Both the position numbers and the translations under genes were made by a program. Under the pieces are notes generated by a model. It was not told where the DNA came from. It worked only from the letters and a program-made list of their open reading frames with translations, and ran no database searches. From assembly GCA_964016885.1 (NCBI GenBank), contig OZ024741.1, forward strand, positions 139,376,001-139,440,000: DNA of 64,000 nt. The letters run 5' to 3'. The DNA comes from Eledone cirrhosa (taxonomy: Eukaryota). Below, piece after piece: positions 53-50,257 of the stretch (position 1 is the first letter of the stretch; the number at the start of each line of letters is the position of its first letter).

Positions 53-163
53 TATCTTATCTGGCATGCTTGCATATCTATACATTACACATGTACATAG
101 TTATATACACATTGGTGTAGTCTCGGTAACCCAATTTGTATTTATATAGATATATCTTTATTG

Positions 164-198
<35 letters not shown>

Positions 199-201
199 AT
201 G

Positions 202-241
<40 letters not shown>

Positions 242-386
242 CATACATACATACAAATATATATATATATACATACAATAAACATATATCTATATAAATA
301 CAAATTGGGTAACCGAGACTACACCAATGTGTATATAACTATGTACATGTTTAATATATAGTTATGCAAGCATGCCAGATAAGATA
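53..386. repeat. ~330-bp imperfect palindrome (fold-back) centred on (TA)n
   Basis: tatcttatctggcatgcttgcat...gtctcggtaacccaatttgt (53-165) is mirrored by acaaattgggtaaccgagac...atgcaagcatgccagataagata (275-386). Confidence 0.9.
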
Positions 387-1500: not shown

Positions 1501-2100
1501 TTTGAACCGAAAATAATAACTGTCAAATAAAACAAATGTAGAAGCCATTCCATGTGTCTTATTTCTGATTTATTTGAATAACACTCCTGCAGTTGTATGT
1601 TTAAGATCTGTCCCCAACCAACTGATACTTAATTAAATCCCGCAGTCCGAATACTTGAACATGTATCTTGTACTAAATCACGTCTTATGTGATTCCTAGT
1701 GAGTAGAATATGATAAAGAAGCACACACACAAATACACACACAATATGAGTGTATGTCTATATGTTCCGTAAAATAGTTGTTTGATTGAAATTAAATCTA
1801 TAAAGAATCAGGCATGAAACTTAGTCGACGATGTCGACGCCACTATGCCAACTGGGTTCCCAGCGTGATCGCAATCAAATGAATGAAACCAGGCAGCATA
1901 TCATATTCTAAATTGATATATGAAAGATCATCGCTTTACTTATTTCTAAACATCTGCTTTCTTTTATTATACTCTCGGCTCATTCAATTCGTGAATATTT
2001 GCCCTACATTCCATAAAAGCTAAATTTCATCAGAAGTTGAGAATTTACGCGAAGGTATTTACTGAAGATATTTCGCTTTCTTGCAGTTTATCTATGAATT

Positions 2101-2311
2101 TGTAGCGACCCCTATTGTAAAAAAAAGAGAATTAATTAGTGTTACTTCCCGTAGGCATAATAAATAGACGAGACTTGTGTTTCTCACTCTCTTATTTACT
2201 GCCGGCCGCGTTCTGACGAGCAGCTCTCTATATCTTCTTTTTTATTGAATTAGTGGTTGGTTACCAGCGGTATCTTCAGGAGTAGATTAACCCAATAAAC
2301 CATTCGCTAAA
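2101..2311 (+). mobile_element. LTR-like sequence (Gypsy-type), 211 bp
   Basis: Starts TGTAGCGA, ends TCGCTAAA (1 mismatch to TCGCTACA), AATAAA at 2294, followed after 1 nt by a tRNA-Trp PBS TGGTGACCCCGACGTGAT. Confidence 0.7.
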
Positions 2312-2312
2312 C

Positions 2313-2386
2313 TGGTGACCCCGACGTGATTTAAATACAAGCCTTCTAATCTGGAGTAAGATGTGCTACCGTTGCGCCACAGGACC
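2313..2386 (-). tRNA. trnW: tRNA-Trp(CCA) copy, diverged and probably pseudo, with encoded 3' CCA
   Basis: Minus strand reads ggtcctgtggcgcaacggtagcacatcttactCCAgattagaaggcttgtatttaaatcacgtcggggtcaCCA, close to canonical metazoan tRNA-Trp; substitutions in acceptor stem and T-loop. Confidence 0.85.
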
Positions 2387-2964
2387 TGGTCTCGCGAGAC
2401 GGATAGCAACAATCAAATATAAAATGCTACACAATTGCTTATACAGATGGCTTATGACGTTGGCATTGTATATTCTTATTCGGTTACCTTGTATTAAATC
2501 TTAAGGAAATTTTATTTTTGTTTTGACGATAGGCTTGTATTTTAAGAAATATTTTACAAGCTTACGTTACTTGATAGTACATTACGTTTTAATTTATACG
2601 ATCGTGTAAAAAGAAATTATGAAGTTATTCATAACATTGGTTATATATGAATGACACCTATCATATAAATATTTAATATGAATCTCCGTTGCATTCGAAT
2701 TACTCTACTGTGCTATTATTAAATGTACTTGTGTATCAGTATTTCTCGACTTTACATTCAATGGTGTTCAAGCTGTCATTGACAATTGAATGATCAAAAT
2801 GTCATTAGAAAATGTGTTTGTATCGATTCCAAACTGTTTTTATTTGCACCTATCAATTTTAAAGTTAAAATCATATGTTTGTTAGATCGCGTTTAGTTTT
2901 AAAACTTTTGCAGATTTCCTTCTATATATATAAAGATAATATTTGCTTGTGTGTGTGTTTCAGT

Positions 2965-4400
2965 ATGTCCCGCTTTTGGGTGAAAGCAGAAATTGTTTTC
3001 TTAAACATTTGTGAGCTAGGACTCCTAATTAAACGCACACACAATAAGGAATATTTAGACAGACAATAACCTCAGCTGCTTCTGCACCACAAGTCCAGAA
3101 AGAGGCAGACCACTTATCATTACCTCAATGGCCAAGAAGACCCTAACAGAAATATAGAGCGGATGGACCAGAGCCATACGAACCTACGAAAACCACGATA
3201 AATTAAAAATGATCACACATGCGGTGGGGGCCAGTATAAAACTAACCCTTAAGGAACATATGTTCAAGTTTAATGGCAAAACATATGCCCATAAGGAGGA
3301 GGCAGCCATTGACGTTAGCATTGCACGGGAATATAGCTAACTTCTTCTGGTGTGGTGGGGCAGAAAACTTAACGAACCCTTAGACGACAATTGTATAACA
3401 TTGATTATCTACATCCGCTACGTAGATGACATAAACATCGTAGTAAAAACACCCCCACAGTAGAAGATTCAGGAATGAAAGAACATTTGCATCCAGCAAA
3501 TACCTAACTCCATCTACCAGAGTATTAAAGTTACTATAGTCTACTCAACTAAACACGCCAACAATAGATTACACGTACTAGACACATGACTATGGGTGGA
3601 AATGATTAGTAATAGAACGCAGATCCTCCATTGGCATTATACCAAACCCATGATCTCCAAGTACCCGATCCACAGAAATTGTAAAATTAGAAACGTCGTA
3701 TATAGCATAAGATGTACTGAGGAATAAGAACATAACATACATAGGTGAAACAGCCCGTAGCATAGGAGAAAGAATAAGTGAACACTGACGAGAACACTAG
3801 GTTGGAAAAAACTCATCAGAACTCCACCAACATGCCAAAATAGAACATAGGCGCACATTAGAGAACATAGTTATAGAATTGTTATCCACTCACGGAAAAG
3901 ATGCAATGCTCAGACAAATCACACAGACGACAAACAAACGAACTCCAACCAAACTTAACCAGAAAACGAGTGGAATAGCAATATAACAACTAATAATTAA
4001 CGACAAAATGAAGACACATAGACACACTCAAAAACTAAACTAACAAAACAAGTAAAAAACACACAGAGAGAAAAACACCCAACTAGTTAAAAGTAAATAA
4101 ACACATAAATAAATAAATTAAAAAAACACACACACACTCGGACGTAATGCATGCACAAACTAAGCAAACAACACACAATACAAGATGATGTAGGGAAGAA
4201 CACAGGAGCGACACCAAATAAAAACCCAGTCACTGAGGAGGTCACATAATGTGTGACGAAAGAACTTTGACAATATGTAAACAACTATCTGGTTATCGAA
4301 CAAACCAACCAACCGGAAATTTAGGAAAGTTATAATAAATTGAAGAGAACATTAACAGGTGGGTGTGTTATTATTGGCAGCATATCCCACCAAAGAATAA
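2965..4400 (+). mobile_element. Decayed, 5'-truncated Neptune-like Penelope element, related to 57874-62177
   Basis: Remnant peptides ELGLLIKRTH, HAVGASIKLTLKEHMFKFNGK, RYVDDINI, RNVVYSIRCTE align with the ORFs at 58642-60363; 3' pLTR with hammerhead; ends at (TA)n. Confidence 0.8.
4229..4271 (+). ncRNA. Minimal type I hammerhead ribozyme (PLE pLTR)
   Basis: gtca-CTGAGGA-g-gtcaca(taatg)tgtgac-GAAA-gaac-TT-tgac; stems I and II pair. Confidence 0.75.
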
Positions 4401-40687: not shown

Positions 40688-43600
40688 TTCCTTGAATCTC
40701 AGTCATTGATGTTGGTTAACTGGAAAGTCCGTTGGATTGAATATCAAGCCACTACCTGCAGCCTCAGATATTCAGGACGTATCGGAGGGTTCTTGCTGTT
40801 CCAAGCAAGCATGCCTTTTGAAGCGTTCCAAAAAGCGTGAAGGGGCCGATTTTCTTTAACCATCCCCGGAAACTTTTGGAGATAGTCCTCAGTGCGCCTA
40901 TGACAATCGGGATCACTTTGACTTCATGGCAGTTCCAAATCCTTTTCACCTCCCACTTTAGGTCCTGGTATCGGTTAATTTTCTCCCTCTCCTTCTCTTG
41001 CACTCTCGTGTCGAACGGGCAGGCCACATCCACAATCAGGCACGATCTTTTTTCTTTGTCCACAACCACCAGGTCAGGTCTATTGTGTTCCAGTTTTTTG
41101 TCCGTCTGTATCCTAAAATCCCTCAGCACCTTCACCTGATTGTTCTCCATCACCGCCTCTGGCCTATGCTCATACCATTTCTCAGAATGTGGTAGATTGT
41201 TTACTTTGCACAGGTGCCAGTGGATCACCCTGCCCATCACATCGTGTCTCCAGCCCTTATAGTGGGTCTGGGCTAGGTGTTTACACTCGGACACAATGTG
41301 AGCCACAGTCTCCTCTCTCTCTCCACAGATCCTGCACAGTGGGCTGGCCTCCTCCTTGTAGATATGGTGCTTCAACCACTTCGTTTTGAGGGCCTGCTCC
41401 TGCGCAGCCATTAGCATTCCTTCTGTAGCCTTTTTGAGGTCTCCCCTTCTCAACCAGTTCCATGTCTGTGGATCTCTAAATTCAGTTTTCTCAAAGAAGG
41501 TACTATGAAGGGGTTTTCCCTTAAGGCTGCTCTTCCTCCTTGATGTTATTTCCTCCCTGGACATCCCCTGGCCTACTGTCCCCTCCTTCAGTACAGCTCT
41601 GAGCATTGGCTCCTTACTATAGGTCACGTATTTGTATAGGTTGTTTTTCTCCATCTGAACACAGTCCTCTATGCTGATAAGACCTCTTCCACCCTCAGAT
41701 CTCCTTAGGTAGAGTCTATCGACATCACTCCTCTTGTGGAACATGTTGTAGATAGTCAATAGCTTCCTAGTCTTCCTATCCATTTCTTTCTGTTCAGCAA
41801 CATTCCATCTCAGAATTCCCGCACTGTACCTAATAATAGACACAGCTCGGGAATTTACTGCGCTTATGGCATTTCTGCTGTTCAGATGTGACTTCAATAC
41901 GCTCCTTACTCTCCGAATGTATTCAGTTCTTAACAATTCCTTCATTTTTTTGTTCTTTATGCCATCAGCCTCCAGAACGCCCAAATACTTGTATCCTTCC
42001 TCAGAGTCAATTTCCTTTATCATCTCACCTGTTGGTATCTGGATCCCGTTACTTCTGCTCAACCTACCCCTCTTCATCACAATGACACCACATTTACCAA
42101 TACCAAACTGCATACATATATCACTGCTGAAAATACGGACAGTGTCAACAAGCACATCCAACTCCTTCTCACTTTTCCCGAAGAGCTTAAGATCGTCCAT
42201 GAATAGGAGGTGATTGATGGTAAGCTCTCCCCTTCCCAACTTGTATCCTGCTCTCACTTTTCGCAGCATAATGGTCAAGGGCATCAGGGCAAGGACAAAC
42301 AACAGAGGGGACAGGCTATCTCCCTGGAAGATACCTCTCTTGATCTTCACGCTTCCCAAGGATACTCCAGTTGATGTCAACTCTGTCTCCCAGGACCCCA
42401 TACTCCTGCCTAGCAACTGTCTGATGTTATCCGCCACCCTGAAGATCTCCAGGCTTTTGGAGATCCAGGAATGAGGCACCATGTCAAATGCCTTTCTGTA
42501 GTCTATCCATCCCATGGCAAGATCAGTGTGTCTCCTCCTGCAATTCCCCATTACCATCTTATCAATAAGCAACTGGTCCTTTGTACCACGTGACTTCTTT
42601 CGGCATCCTTTCTGTTCGTCCGGTAACAAGTTGTTTGTGTGGAGGTGATGGTAGATTTCCTCAGACACAATGCTCGTCAACAGTTTCCACATTACGGGCA
42701 GACATGTGATAGGTCTATAGTTGGTAGCATCATTACCCTTGATTCGGTCTTTCATTATCAGAACTGTGGTACCTTTTGTCAACCACTCTGGCACCTCACC
42801 CGACACCAAGCAGTCATTGAACATGGCCGTCAGCTTCGGGTGGAGGGATGTTAAATGTTTAATCCAATACCCCTGCACACCATCTGGGCCTGGTGATTTC
42901 CAGTTGGTTAGTTTTTTGGCTTGCCCCTTAAGAGTTTCAACTGTGATACTCAAATCAGTCTGTTGCTGTGCCTGCTCACCGATCTCCCTCTGTACTGTCT
43001 CAATCCACCCTGCCTGGGCATTGTGTCTAACATCCTGCTCCCATATTCCTCTCCAGAATGTTTTAGTTTGCTCCGCCCCAGGGATCAAGTCGTTGCCTCT
43101 TTCTTTGCCATCAAGCTGTCCAAACAGCATCTTCTGGTTGTTGTCGAACATGCGGTTCTATTTATACTGACTGACTCTGTTCTCGTATCGCCTGATTTTT
43201 GCACTCTTTGCTACAATGCGTTGCTTCAATTCCTCTATGATAATATTTAGCTTTTGACTCCTAGTTTTGTATTTTATTTCCAGTCTATTTTTAGTGCCTA
43301 TGTTTTTTAGTGTCCCATTCAGTAGTGACTCAAGCTTTCCTATGTCATTTCTCATTTCCCCGATTTGCCCACTCAGTCGCTTCTTCCACCACGGCTCTGC
43401 TCTTTCTTGTCTGTTGTTTCCTCTCGCTTTTATACCAAGTAGTTTCCTCACCGTATTTGCTGTTGCTCTGAGGATATTGTTGCACTGGTGAAGGCTCCTC
43501 GCCTCAAGGTATGGGATGACTTTGTTTACCTTAGCTGTTGTTTCTTTTAACTTTTTCCTGTCTACAAATCTTAGGTTCATAGGTCTCCCACTATCATTGT

Positions 43601-44231: not shown

Positions 44232-47200
44232 ATTCCTTGAATCTCAGTCATTGATGTTGGTTAACTGGAAAGTCCGTTGGATTGAATATCAAGCCACTAC
44301 CTGCAGCCTCAGATATTCAGGACGTATCGGAGGGTTCTTGCCGTTCCAAGCAAGCATGCCTTTTGAAGCGTTCCAAAAAGCGTGAAGGGGCCGATTTTCT
44401 TTAACCATCCCTGGAAACCTTTGGAGATAGTCCCCAGTGCGCCTATGACAATCGGGATCACTTTGACTTCATAGCAGTTCCAAATCCTTTTCACCTCCCA
44501 CTCTAGGTCCTGGTATCGGTTAATTTTCTCCCTCTCCTTCTCTTGCACTCTCGTGTCGAACGGGCAGGCCACATCCACAATCAGGCACGATCTTTTTTCT
44601 TTGACCACAACCACCAGGTCAGGTCTATTGTGTTCCAGTTTTTTGTCCGTCTGTATCCTAAAATCCCACAGCACCTTCACCTGACTGTTCTCCATCACCG
44701 CCTCTGTCCTATGCTCATACCATTTCTCAGAGAGTGGTAGATTGTTTACTTTGCACAGGTGCCAGTGGATCACCCTGCCCATCACATCGTGTCTCCAGCC
44801 CTTATAGTGGGTCTGGGCTAGGTGTTTACACTCGGACACAATGTGGGCCACAGTCTCCTCTCTCTCTCCACAGATCCTGCACAGTGGGCTAGCCTCCTCC
44901 TTGTAGATATGGTGCTTCAACCACTTCGTTTTGAGGGCCTGCTCCTGCGCAGCCATTAGCATTCCTTCTGTAGCCTTTTTGAGGTCTCCTCTTCTCAACC
45001 AGTTCCATGTCTGTGGATCTCTAAATTCAGTTTTCTCAAAGAAGGTACTATGAAGGGATTTTCCCTTAAGGCTGCTCTTCCTCCTTGATGTTATTTCCTC
45101 CTTGGATATCCCCTGGCCTACTGTCCCCTCCTTCAGTACAGCTCTGAGCATTGGCTCCTTACTATAGGTCACGTATTTGTATAGGTTGTTTTTCTCCATC
45201 TGAACACAGTCCTCTATGCTGATAAGACCTCTTCCACCCTCAGATCTCCTTAGGTAGAGTCTATCGACATCACTCCTCTTGTGGAACATGTTGTAGATAG
45301 TCAATAGCTTCCTAGTCTTCCTATCCATTTCTTTTTGTTCAGCAACATTCCATCTCAGAATTCCCGCATTGTACCTAATAATAGACACAGCTCGGGAATT
45401 TACTGCGCTTATGGCATTTCTGCTGTTCAGATGTGACTTCAATACGCTCCTTACTCTCCGAATGTATTCAGTTCTTAACAATTCCTTCATTTTTTTGTTC
45501 TTTATGCCATCAGCCTCCAGAACGCCCAAATACTTGTATCCTTCCTCAGAGTCAATTTCCTTTATCATCTCACCTGTTGGTATCTGGATCCCGTTACTTC
45601 TGCTCAACCGACCCCTCCTCATCACAATGACTCCACATTTACCAATACCAAACTGCATACATATATCACTGCTGAAAATACGGACAGTGTCAACAAGCAC
45701 ATCGAACTCCTTCTCACTTTTCCCGAAGAGCTTAAGATCGTCCATGAAGAGGAGGTGATTGATGGTAAGCTCTCCCCTTCCCAACTTGTATCCTGCTCTC
45801 ACTTTTCGCAGCATAATGGTCAAGGGCATCAGGGCAAGGACAAACAACAGAGGGGACAGGCTATCTCCCTGGAAGATACCTCTCTTGATCTTCACGCTTC
45901 CCAAGGATACTCCAGTTGATGTCAACTCTGTCTCCCAGGACCCCATACTCCTGCCCAGCAACTGTCTGATGTTATCTGCCACCCTGAAGATCTCCAGGCT
46001 TTTGGTGATCCAGGAATGAGGCACCATGTCAAATGCCTTTCTGTAGTCTATCCATCCCATGGCAAGATCAGTGTGTCTCCTCCTGCAATTCCCCATTACC
46101 ATCTTATCAATAAGCAACTGGTCCTTTGTACCACGTGACTTCTTTCGGCATCCTTTCTGTTCGTCCGGTAACAAGTTGTTTGTGTGGAGGTGATGGTAGA
46201 TTTCCTCAGACACAATGCTCGTCAACAGTTTCCACATTACGGACAGACATGTGATAGGTCTATAGTTGGTAACATCATTACCCTTGCTTCGGTCTTTCAT
46301 TATCAGAACTGTGGTACCTTTTGTCAACCACTCCGGCACCTCACCCGACACCAAGCAGTCATTGAACATGGCCGTCAGCTTCGGGTGGAGGGATGTTAAA
46401 TGTTTAATCCAATACCCCTGCACACCATCTGGGCCTGGTGATTTCCAGTTGGTTAATTTTTTGGCTTGCCCCTTAAGAGTTTCAACTGTGATACTCAAAT
46501 CAGTCTGTTGCTGTGCCTGCTCACCGATCTCCCTCTGTACTGTCTCAATCCACCCTGCCTGGGCATTGTATCTAACATCCTGCTCCCATATTCCTCTCCA
46601 GAATGTTTTAGCTTGTTCCGCCCCAGGGATCAAGTCGTTGCCTCTTTCTTTCCCCTCAAGCTGTCCAAACAGCATCTTCTGGTTGTTGTCGAACATGCGG
46701 TTCTGTTTATACTGACTGACTCTGTTCTCGTATCGCCTGATTTTGGCACTCTTTGCTACAATGCGTTGCTTCAATTCCTCTATGATAATATTTAGCTTTT
46801 GACTCCTAGTTTTGTATTTTATTTCCAGTCTATTTTTAGTGCCTATGTTTTTTAGTGTCCCATTCAGTAGTGACTCAAGCTTTCCTATGTCATTTCTCAT
46901 TTCCCCGATTTGCCCACTCAGTCGCTTCTTCCACCACGGCTCTGCTCTTTCTTGTCTGTTGTTTCCTCTCGCTTTTATACCAAGTAGTTTCCTCACCGTA
47001 TTTGCTGTTGCTTTGAGGATATTGTTGTACTGGTGAAGACTCCTCGCCTCAAGGTATGGGATGACTTTGTTTACCTTAGCTGTTGTTTCTTTTAACTTTT
47101 TCCTGTCTACAAATCTTAGGTTCATAGGTCTCCCACTATCATTGTTCAACTCATCTACCACTAAATTTAGGATGTCAACCGAATCTTGTCCTAGCCCGTC

Positions 47201-48849: not shown

Positions 48850-50257
48850 CTCTTTGAGTCTCAGTCATTGATGTTAGTTAACTGGAAAGTTTGTTTAGAT
48901 GAATATCAAGCCACTACCTGCAGCCTCAGATATTCAGACGTATCGGAGGGTTCTTGCTGTTCCCAGCAAGCATGCCTTTTGAAGCGTTCCAAAAAGCGTG
49001 AAGGGGCCTATGACAATCGGGATCACTTTGATTTCATGGCAGTTCCAAATCCTTTTTACCTCCCACTTTAAGTCCTGGTATCGGTTAATTTTCTTCCTCT
49101 CCTTCTCTTGCACTCTCGTGTCGAATGGGCAGGCCACATCCACAATCAGGCACGATCTTTTTCTTTGTCCAAAACCACAAGGTCAGGTCTATTGTATTCA
49201 AGTTTCTTGTCCGTCTGTATCCTAAAATCCCACAGCACCTTCACATGATCGTTTTCTATCACCGCCTCTGGCTTATGCTCATACCACTTCTCAGAATGTG
49301 GTAAATTGTTTACTTTGAACAGGTGCCAGTGGATCACCCTGCCCATAACATCATGTCTCCAGCCCTTATAGTGAGTCTGGGCTAGGTGTTTACACTCGGA
49401 CACAATGTGAGCCACAGTCTACTCTCTTCACAGATCCTGCACAGTGGGCTAGCCTCCTCCTTGTAAATATGGTGTTTCAACCACTTCGTTTTGAGGGCCT
49501 GCTCCTGCGCAGCCATTAACATTCCTTCTGTAGCCTTTTTAAGGTCTCCTCTTATCAACCAGTTCCATGTCTGTGGATCTCTAAATTCAGTTTTCTCAAA
49601 GAAGGTATTATGAAGGGATTTTTCCTGAAGGCTGCTCTTTCTCCTTGATGTTATTTCCTCCTTGGACATCCCCTGGCCTATTGTCCCCTCCTTCGCTACA
49701 GTTCTGAGCATTGGCTCCTTACTATCAGTCACGTATTTGTGTAGGTTGTTTTTCTCCAACTGAACACAGTCCTCTATGCTGATAAGACCTCTTCCACCCT
49801 CAGATCTCCTTAAGTAGAGTCTATCGACATCACTCCTCTTGTGGAACATATTGTAGATAGTCAATAGCTTCCTAGTCTTCCTATCCATTTCTTTTTGTTC
49901 AGCAACATTCCATCTCAGAATTCCCGCACTGTACCTAATAATAGACACAGCTCGGGAATTTACTCCACTTATGGCATTCCTACTGTTCAGATGTGATTTT
50001 AATACGCTACTTCCTCTCCGAAGGTATTCAGTTCTTATCAATTCCTTCATTTTTTTGTTCTTGATGTCATCAGCCTCCAGAACGCCCAAATACTTGTATC
50101 CTTCTTCAGAGTCAATTTCTTTTATCATCTCACCTGTTGGTATCTGGATTCCGTTACTTCTGCTCAACTTACCCCTCCTCATCACAATGACTCCACACTT
50201 ACTAATACCAACTTGCATACATATATCATTGCTGAAAATACGGACAGTGTCAACAAG

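What the first reader, a model, noticed from the sequence alone, without database searches (positions are those of the whole stretch)
2101..2436. Mini LTR-like cassette whose primer-binding site extends into a whole antisense tRNA-Trp
Seen: a 211-bp TGTAGCGA...TCGCTA(A)A LTR-like unit, then a Trp PBS. Complementarity does not stop at 18 nt but covers the entire tRNA-Trp including 3' CCA. About 45 nt further lies a second terminus GCTACA (2426-2431), with flanks gaatt/caatt resembling a 5-bp TSD with one mismatch. No gag/pol or second LTR follows. Known: a PBS is normally limited to ~18 nt by m1A58, and eukaryotic tRNA genes do not encode CCA. Inference: either a 331-bp non-autonomous element with integrase-type ends carrying its own primer tRNA gene, or an integrated strong-stop DNA that read through the primer tRNA.
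Basis: partly seen in the sequence, partly recalled or inferred. Interest (0 to 1): 0.75.

Follow-up and report, generated by a model that had tools for sequence, protein, structure and literature searches.

The report
Retrotransposon copy captured two host tRNAs
A single inserted end-repeat of a jumping gene is joined to a reversed copy of a whole mature tryptophan tRNA and, with no gap, the last 18 letters of a mature tyrosine tRNA, likely because the element's copying enzyme ran through its primer and jumped onto another tRNA, making this a likely one-off fossil of a copying accident rather than a new mobile element.

Summary
The sequence is as described, but it is not a 331-bp element family. 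2101-2311 is one LTR of a multi-copy, CsRn1-like Ty3/gypsy family (Trp primer site, 4-bp target duplications). 2313-2386 is the antisense of a whole tRNA-Trp plus CCA, which the sampled genomic genes lack. New here: the first 18 nt of the 'spacer' (2387-2404) are the exact antisense of the 3' end of this genome's tRNA-Tyr, CCA included. They abut G1 of the Trp copy and end just before A58. The tRNA-plus-tail part is single-copy. At least 35 other places, from ten or more LTR ends, show read-through to tRNA position ~42 or beyond. Their stops cluster near G37 and just before G26, and A58 is altered in 8 of 28. Best reading (0.8): plus-strand strong-stop DNA read through the primer, jumped end-to-end onto a second tRNA, and was inserted with a likely 4-bp duplication (AATT). 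The last 28 nt and the right end are unresolved.

The parts
2097..2100 (.). Left copy of the likely 4-bp target-site duplication (AATT)
   Evidence: Family makes 4-bp duplications in 11 of 12 solo LTRs; coordinates
2101..2311 (+). Solo LTR (short subfamily) of a CsRn1-like Ty3/gypsy family; no polypurine tract or internal sequence before it
   Evidence: 61 matches among 40 of 201 candidates scored; median 91%, best 94% identity to 26 other full-length hits; two-LTR relatives carry gag-like, RT and RNase H domains
2312..2312 (+). One-base spacer between LTR end and primer-binding site, as in normal 5' LTRs of the family
2313..2386 (-). Reverse copy of a whole mature tRNA-Trp(CCA), positions 1-76 with CCA; A box intact, B box with two substitutions
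   Evidence: none of 38 sampled gene contexts is followed by CCA
2387..2404 (-). Reverse copy of the last 18 nt (positions 59-76, with CCA) of tRNA-Tyr(GTA), abutting G1 of the Trp copy with no gap and ending just before A58
   Evidence: Exact match to the 3' end of genes at 49 places (47 exact, 2 with one difference), called tRNA-Tyr with intron; genes lack CCA (0 of 11 contexts); the 18-mer with CCA is exact only here
2405..2432 (+). 28 nt of unknown origin ending in GCTACA-C, an LTR-end-like terminus; either a third template or host DNA
   Evidence: One other match with 3 mismatches, inside an RTE-like LINE, about chance level
2433..2436 (.). Right copy of the likely 4-bp target-site duplication (AATT)
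   Evidence: not proven, no empty site seen

Best explanation
This is a single-copy insertion made of one CsRn1-like LTR, a reversed whole mature tRNA-Trp and the reversed last 18 nt of a mature tRNA-Tyr, likely a dead-end reverse-transcription product that was inserted into the genome. Inferred steps: (1) plus-strand synthesis began at the polypurine tract and copied U3-R-U5. (2) It ran through the still-attached primer tRNA-Trp past the usual stops (A58, G37, G26) to G1. (3) The enzyme then jumped end-to-end onto the free CCA end of a co-packaged tRNA-Tyr, or of its 18-nt 3' fragment, and stopped at A58 or at the fragment's end. (4) A further jump or repair added 28 nt ending in an LTR-end-like GCTACA, and integrase joined the product with a 4-bp duplication. 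Shown: the anatomy, mature CCA on both tRNAs, single copy number, recurrence of read-through genome-wide, and exact 4-bp duplications at sister events. Not shown: modification status in this animal, jump versus prior RNA ligation, the source of the last 28 nt, and whether the solo LTR was inserted as such or arose later by LTR-LTR recombination.
For: CCA is present on both tRNA copies and absent from 38 of 38 Trp and 11 of 11 Tyr gene contexts sampled. What follows G1 is another tRNA's 3' end, not the gene's 5' flank; chance about 1e-9 for ~100 tRNA ends at a fixed place. No Tyr-primed LTR family supplies the 18-mer (3 places at up to 1 mismatch: the window, a Tyr gene, one LTR-less place). 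Read-through recurs: 264 places past position 58 (many from families that inherited it) and 35 places to about position 42 or beyond. Among 28 junctions outside two inheriting families, 22 end at positions 35-43, 6 at 27-29 and none at 30-34. A58 is altered in 8 of 28 against 14 of 952 other sites (p=5e-9; p=0.005 at a 10% background). A second copy of the same family (L002) reads to about position 8 with G26T and A58C among 5 differences. It then jumps to the element's own antisense strand and ends GCTACA before an exact duplication. All 7 sister events with both ends marked by LTR-end sequence have an exact 4-bp duplication (L092, L112, L118, L120, L124, L131, L182). In 3 of 5 unrelated metagenome records the match stops at about position 27. 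Dead-end plus-strand DNA that copies the primer is known for Ty3/Ty1 (PMC5371799, section 2.2); switching on minimal overlap is known in vitro for Tf1 and retroviral RTs (PMC3035444, passages).
Against: The two-tRNA join is n=1: no other Trp-5'-end-to-TGG junction among 18 places. The window copy keeps A58 and G37 unchanged, and its G26A lies in a CpG, so it carries no modification signature of its own. The right boundary is not independently marked. The 28 nt plus the next 100 nt show weak similarity to an RTE-like LINE (p 0.005-0.025 in three copies, none in two), so 2405 onward may be host DNA and the AATT pair a coincidence. 8 of the 20 events with a located left end show no matching 4-mer within 52 nt of the tRNA end. 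The two L118 arms are one event counted twice (7 of 27 without it), and the search pattern capped other mismatches at one per copy. For HIV-1, read-through products are described as unable to integrate (PMC8599865, passages).
Confidence: 0.8

Rival explanations
1. Same read-through, but tRNA-Tyr (or its 18-nt 3' fragment) was ligated as RNA to the 5' end of the primer tRNA-Trp before copying, so no polymerase jump occurred.
For: The join is seamless, with no added base. RNA ligation precedes U6/L1 chimeras (PMC6789731, abstract and outline). 17-19-nt 3' tRNA fragments exist and act at the reverse-transcription step (PMC7472051, passages).
Against: The RtcB route needs a 2',3'-cyclic phosphate and a 5'-OH, whereas mature tRNAs carry CCA-3'-OH and a 5' phosphate (own knowledge). 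Sister events show frequent polymerase jumps to DNA of the element itself.
Confidence: 0.08
2. The LTR-tRNA-Trp-tRNA-Tyr cDNA ended at 2404 and was patched in by one-ended integration or break repair; 2405 onward is host DNA, and GCTACA and the second AATT are chance.
For: The 28 nt have no LTR source among fetched loci. Weak LINE similarity runs across 2432/2433. AATT alone is common. Integrase-independent insertion through primer-derived single strands exists for Tf1 (PMC11042837, passages).
Against: An LTR-end-like hexamer followed within one base by the left 4-mer is expected about 0.002 times per 60 nt. The LINE hit is the single best genome-wide match, near chance, and the left flank does not match that LINE. 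This rival changes only the last step.
Confidence: 0.07
3. An LTR cDNA with a single-stranded primer site recombined into a genomic tRNA-Trp gene, so the tRNA is a gene and only the CCA came from the element.
For: Tf1 cDNA inserts at sites with homology to its primer site without integrase.
Against: The gene's 5' flank should follow G1, but a mature tRNA-Tyr end follows. The window has no tRNA genes, while the genes sit mainly in arrays on another contig. The partial copies with clustered stops and A58 changes are not explained.
Confidence: 0.03
4. A 331-bp non-autonomous element (TRIM- or MITE-like) that carries its own primer tRNA gene and transposes as a unit.
For: 6-bp inverted ends TGTAGC/GCTACA and a plausible duplication.
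Against: Single copy. Only 2 of the matches extend beyond query position 266, with different tails. No second LTR or polypurine tract. Damaged B box.
Confidence: 0.02

Closest known systems
Dead-end plus-strand strong-stop DNA of yeast Ty3/Ty1 (PMC5371799, section 2.2 read)
   Same: Plus strand starts at U3, copies the LTR and runs into the attached primer tRNA; the product is displaced and accumulates.
   Different: There it copies 12 nt of tRNA and is called a dead end. Here the whole tRNA and the end of a second, non-primer tRNA were copied, and the product is in the genome.
HIV-1 plus-strand read-through past m1A58/m5Um54 (PMC8599865, passages)
   Same: Loss or bypass of the A58 stop lets the enzyme run deeper into the primer.
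   Different: Described as unable to integrate; here sister products carry exact 4-bp duplications.
CsRn1 clade of Ty3/gypsy elements (PwRn1, AgCR1-14; PMC2582038, passages)
   Same: tRNA-Trp primer site, 4-bp duplication, TGT...AAA ends, polypurine tract.
   Different: No extended primer sites appeared in the passages read. The insertion is an aberrant product of such an element, not an element.
Helenus/TRIMp3 elements (PMC10886601, abstract and first part of Results read)
   Same: Short LTR-derived sequence with tRNA-derived DNA; 4-bp duplication in animals.
   Different: Helenus has the tRNA-like part inside each of two LTRs and is multi-copy. Here the tRNA lies outside a single LTR, has CCA and is single-copy.
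Strong-stop DNA plus primer tRNA model of SINE origin (Ohshima et al. 1993; recalled, paper not held)
   Same: Read on the minus strand, the insertion is tRNA, CCA, then antisense U5-R-U3, the precursor that I recall the model proposing.
   Different: This copy did not amplify, has a damaged B box and has no LINE-type tail.
U6/L1 chimeric pseudogenes (PMC6789731, abstract and outline)
   Same: Two RNAs joined seamlessly in one retro-copy.
   Different: Non-LTR machinery and RtcB ligation; here an LTR element and two CCA-bearing tRNAs.

Membership tests
CsRn1 clade (parent LTR family) | Primer site for the tRNA-Trp 3' end | tested here: met
   definition
CsRn1 clade (parent LTR family) | 4-bp target-site duplication | tested here: met
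   11 of 12 solo LTRs; 0 of 12 with 5 bp
CsRn1 clade (parent LTR family) | LTR ends TGT...AAA or ATA, polypurine tract before the 3' LTR | tested here: met
CsRn1 clade (parent LTR family) | CHCC motif in Gag | tested here: inconclusive
   Recognisable but imperfect in the two decayed copies read (L127, L129); intact in 8 loci of other Trp-primed families in this genome
CsRn1 clade (parent LTR family) | RT phylogeny groups with CsRn1/Kabuki/Boudicca | not tested
   Only Pfam RT, RNase H and DUF7041 hits; no tree built
TRIM / Helenus (TRIMp3) | Two LTRs around a primer site and polypurine tract | tested here: not met
   One LTR only
TRIM / Helenus (TRIMp3) | tRNA-like sequence inside the LTR | tested here: not met
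   tRNA lies 3' of the LTR end; other LTR copies lack it
TRIM / MITE / SINE | Unit is dispersed in multiple copies | tested here: not met
Functional tRNA-Trp gene | Intact A and B boxes and cloverleaf | tested here: not met
   A box intact, B box G53A and C56T; no ARAGORN call; 2313-2404 folds worse than shuffles, z=+2.1
Extended plus-strand strong-stop DNA | Starts at the U3 edge and runs LTR, spacer, antisense mature primer with CCA | tested here: met
Extended plus-strand strong-stop DNA | Stops or errors at modified tRNA bases | tested here: inconclusive
   Met across sister events and L002; the window copy has none unambiguous for Trp, and its Tyr part ends just before A58
Extended plus-strand strong-stop DNA | m1A58, m1G37 and m2,2G26 actually present in this animal's tRNAs | not testable with these tools
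   Inferred from general tRNA knowledge
Integrase product | Exact duplication at independently defined ends | tested here: inconclusive
   AATT pair present, right end not independently fixed, no empty site

The most novel reading that the evidence does not exclude
LTR-retrotransposon reverse transcriptase performs serial end-to-end jumps between co-packaged tRNAs in the germ line, and integrase inserts the products. Genomes would then hold a fossil library of particle RNA cargo and of tRNA modification sites (A58, G37, G26), and a standing supply of tRNA-CCA-U5 precursors of the kind once proposed as the origin of tRNA-derived SINEs.
Probability: 0.4. Interest if true: 0.78.

Novelty: new variant of a known kind. 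Interest (0 to 1): 0.58.

Why it matters
Primer read-through products are usually treated as dead ends that cannot integrate. Here they are in the germ-line genome by the dozen, several with exact integrase-type duplications, and their stop points and errors track the expected tRNA modification sites. This copy adds a likely in vivo record of an LTR reverse transcriptase moving from the 5' end of one tRNA to the CCA end of another, an activity I found described only in vitro. It shows a route to CCA-bearing tRNA pseudogenes and makes the old strong-stop model of SINE origin testable by a genome census. As a single decayed copy it has no sign of function.

Tried and rejected
Mini-element family: rejected. 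5-bp duplication: rejected by the family census. Tail as 5' flank of a Trp gene: no match. Tail as the primer site of a Tyr-primed element: no such family. My guess that the L002 tail was also a second tRNA was wrong; it is the element's own antisense internal sequence. Source of 2405-2432: not found; the LINE lead is inconclusive. Empty site: none in contigs of X1/X2; the RAD-seq runs X4/X5 do not cover the tail. No RNA holder listed. Solo versus 3'-LTR excess among read-through events (16:3 against 12:9, hand-tallied, families mixed) is not significant, p=0.09, so direct insertion and later LTR-LTR recombination are not separated. Ten literature searches listed no paper describing genomic LTR-whole-tRNA or two-tRNA joins; I judged most from listings and abstract starts, the library lacks most older subscription papers, three look-ups for two older papers found nothing held, and no supplements were read. 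I recall a 1982 mouse tRNA-Phe pseudogene with CCA next to LTR-like DNA; this comes from no call.

Full report
Observation. The window is G000:C2:139376001-139440000 in a 3.0-Gb, microsatellite-rich eukaryotic assembly. Positions 2101-2311 are a 211-bp unit from TGTAGCGA to TCGCTAAA. After one C come TGG and a minus-strand tRNA at 2316-2386 (Rfam tRNA, 32.8 bits, full model). The copy differs from the nearest tRNA-Trp genes by 8 substitutions and 1 deletion, including two in the B box. ARAGORN calls no gene in the window. Short-read contigs of X1 and X2 (one sample, possibly the assembly's source) cover 2248-3200 without a difference.

The LTR. A DNA search gave 61 matches from 40 of 201 candidates scored. 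Of 25 copies with both ends, 12 are solo, 8 have only a polypurine tract before them, 2 only a Trp primer site after them, 2 both, and one more with a polypurine tract is cut short at its 3' end. Eleven of the 12 solo copies have an exact 4-bp duplication and none has 5 bp. Two-LTR copies of 2.6-3.5 kb hold gag-like, RT and RNase H domains. Trp primer, 4-bp duplication and TGT...AAA ends are the features given for the CsRn1 clade (PMC2582038, passages). The CHCC motif is imperfect in the two decayed copies read and intact in 8 loci of other Trp-primed families; no RT tree was built. The window LTR is 91% (median) identical to 26 other full-length hits, so it is an old copy.

Not a family. The tail matches only itself. 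Contig depth is 170-940 over the LTR and 5-9 over tail and flanks. Among 18 places with the Trp 5' end near a TGG, only the window is LTR-linked; the rest are genes.

The second tRNA. The first 18 nt after G1 of the Trp copy (2387-2404) are the exact antisense of the last 15 genomic nt of tRNA-Tyr plus CCA. The Tyr end occurs at 49 places (47 exact), and the genes are intron-bearing tRNA-Tyr(GTA). None of 11 Tyr or 38 Trp gene contexts sampled is followed by CCA. The 18-mer with CCA is exact only in the window; the two one-mismatch places are a Tyr gene and an LTR-less site. So it is not the primer site of another family. Chance is about 1e-9. The copy ends at position 59, next to A58, which is the usual stop (PMC8599865, passages) and also the length of 3' tRNA fragments (PMC7472051, passages). 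Both tRNAs were thus copied from mature RNA.

Sister events. A pattern for CCA plus tRNA past position 58 hit 264 places, many from families that inherited the extension. A longer pattern (to position 42, one mismatch) hit 35 places from ten or more different LTR ends. I dropped 7 that belong to two inheriting families. Of the remaining 28 junctions, 22 end at positions 35-43, 6 at 27-29 and none between. A58 is altered in 8 of 28 against 14 of 952 other sites (p=5e-9; 0.005 at a 10% background). Two of the 28 are arms of one event, and the pattern capped other mismatches. Stops near G37 and before G26 fit m1G37 and m2,2G26 (own knowledge, not measured here), and misincorporation at m1A is a known RT signature (PMC4787781, passages). 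L002, of the same LTR family, reads to about position 8 with G26T and A58C. It then switches to the element's own antisense strand and ends GCTACA before an exact ATGG duplication. After the tRNA, other events re-copy their own LTR end or fold back. All 7 with both ends marked by LTR-end sequence have exact 4-bp duplications. Of 20 events with a located left end, 12 have the matching 4-mer within 52 nt of the tRNA end and 8 do not. In unrelated metagenome records, 3 of 5 matches stop at about position 27.

The right end. The last 28 nt (2405-2432) have no identified source. One 3-mismatch hit lies in an RTE-like LINE, near chance, with weak similarity continuing into the right flank in three of five copies and none in the left flank. 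GCTACA-C then AATT matches the left AATT; that combination is expected about 0.002 times per 60 nt, after the fact. No empty site was found. The 4-bp duplication is likely but unproven.

Mechanism. In Ty3 and Ty1 the first plus strand copies 12 nt of the primer, is displaced and accumulates as a dead end (PMC5371799, section 2.2). Tf1 and retroviral RTs can switch templates on two-base overlaps and use non-templated additions (PMC3035444, passages). The simplest account is read-through to G1, an end-to-end jump to tRNA-Tyr, a stop at A58, one more jump or repair, and integration (0.8). RNA ligation before copying (0.08) and repair-type insertion ending at 2404 (0.07) differ in one step each. 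Recombination into a gene (0.03) and a mobile unit (0.02) are poorly supported. Whether the solo LTR was inserted directly or arose by later recombination is open; L182 shows that two-LTR products with a tRNA tail also integrate.

Novelty. The intermediate is known; its integration with a whole primer and a second tRNA was not found in ten searches, judged mostly from listings, with older papers not held and supplements unread. The scan's own notes already describe partial read-through, A58 changes and fold-backs in this genome, which I reached independently. They hold nothing on this sequence or on two joined tRNAs. On the minus strand the insertion reads tRNA, CCA, antisense U5, the precursor of the strong-stop model of SINE origin (recalled; paper not held). 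Verdict: real, single-copy, non-functional; a new variant of a known kind; interest 0.58.

Noticed in passing
L099, L101, L108, L115, L123 (at 1500): One Trp-primed family carries an inherited ~40-nt primer site reaching tRNA position 37-38, and the base at position 58 differs among copies (A in 3, T in 2), as if re-copied from the tRNA in some cycles.
   Followed up: partly
L063, L070, L072, L077, L079, L082; L066, L071; L065, L073-L076, L080, L081, L084-L090: Three more families with inherited extended primer sites (~32 nt); the last has the tRNA piece, a second LTR end and a second primer site in tandem.
   Followed up: no
L118 1300-1650: Palindrome folded back at the anticodon stem, with LTR 3' ends at both termini and an exact AACT duplication.
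   Followed up: partly
L092, L182, L131: Fold-back insertions in which the tRNA copy is followed by inverted element sequence, each with an exact 4-bp duplication.
   Followed up: partly
L164 (G000:C9:51807318-51807335): 17 of 18 match to the tRNA-Tyr 3' end with CCA, no LTR seen upstream, followed by A as in the window; possibly another captured tRNA end.
   Followed up: partly
L208, L209, L211 (metagenome records): Trp matches extend about 50 nt and stop just before position 26, with a change at 37 in L209 and at 58 in L211; L210 holds a whole tRNA-Trp with CCA and no evident LTR.
   Followed up: partly
L033-L060 and L135-L146: Tandem arrays of tRNA-Trp genes (C4, 353.39-353.49 Mb) and intron-bearing tRNA-Tyr genes (C1, 49.29-49.42 Mb).
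   Followed up: no
window 53-386: 334-bp palindrome (93%) centred on a TA/CA microsatellite.
   Followed up: no
window 3344-3926: Decayed piece of an RT plus GIY-YIG (Penelope-like) element; very high read depth over 3047-3200.
   Followed up: partly
window 41049-41616, 44594-45161, 49158-49721: Three direct repeats of about 570 bp, 93-98% alike, spaced 3.5 and 4.6 kb, in a T-rich region.
   Followed up: no
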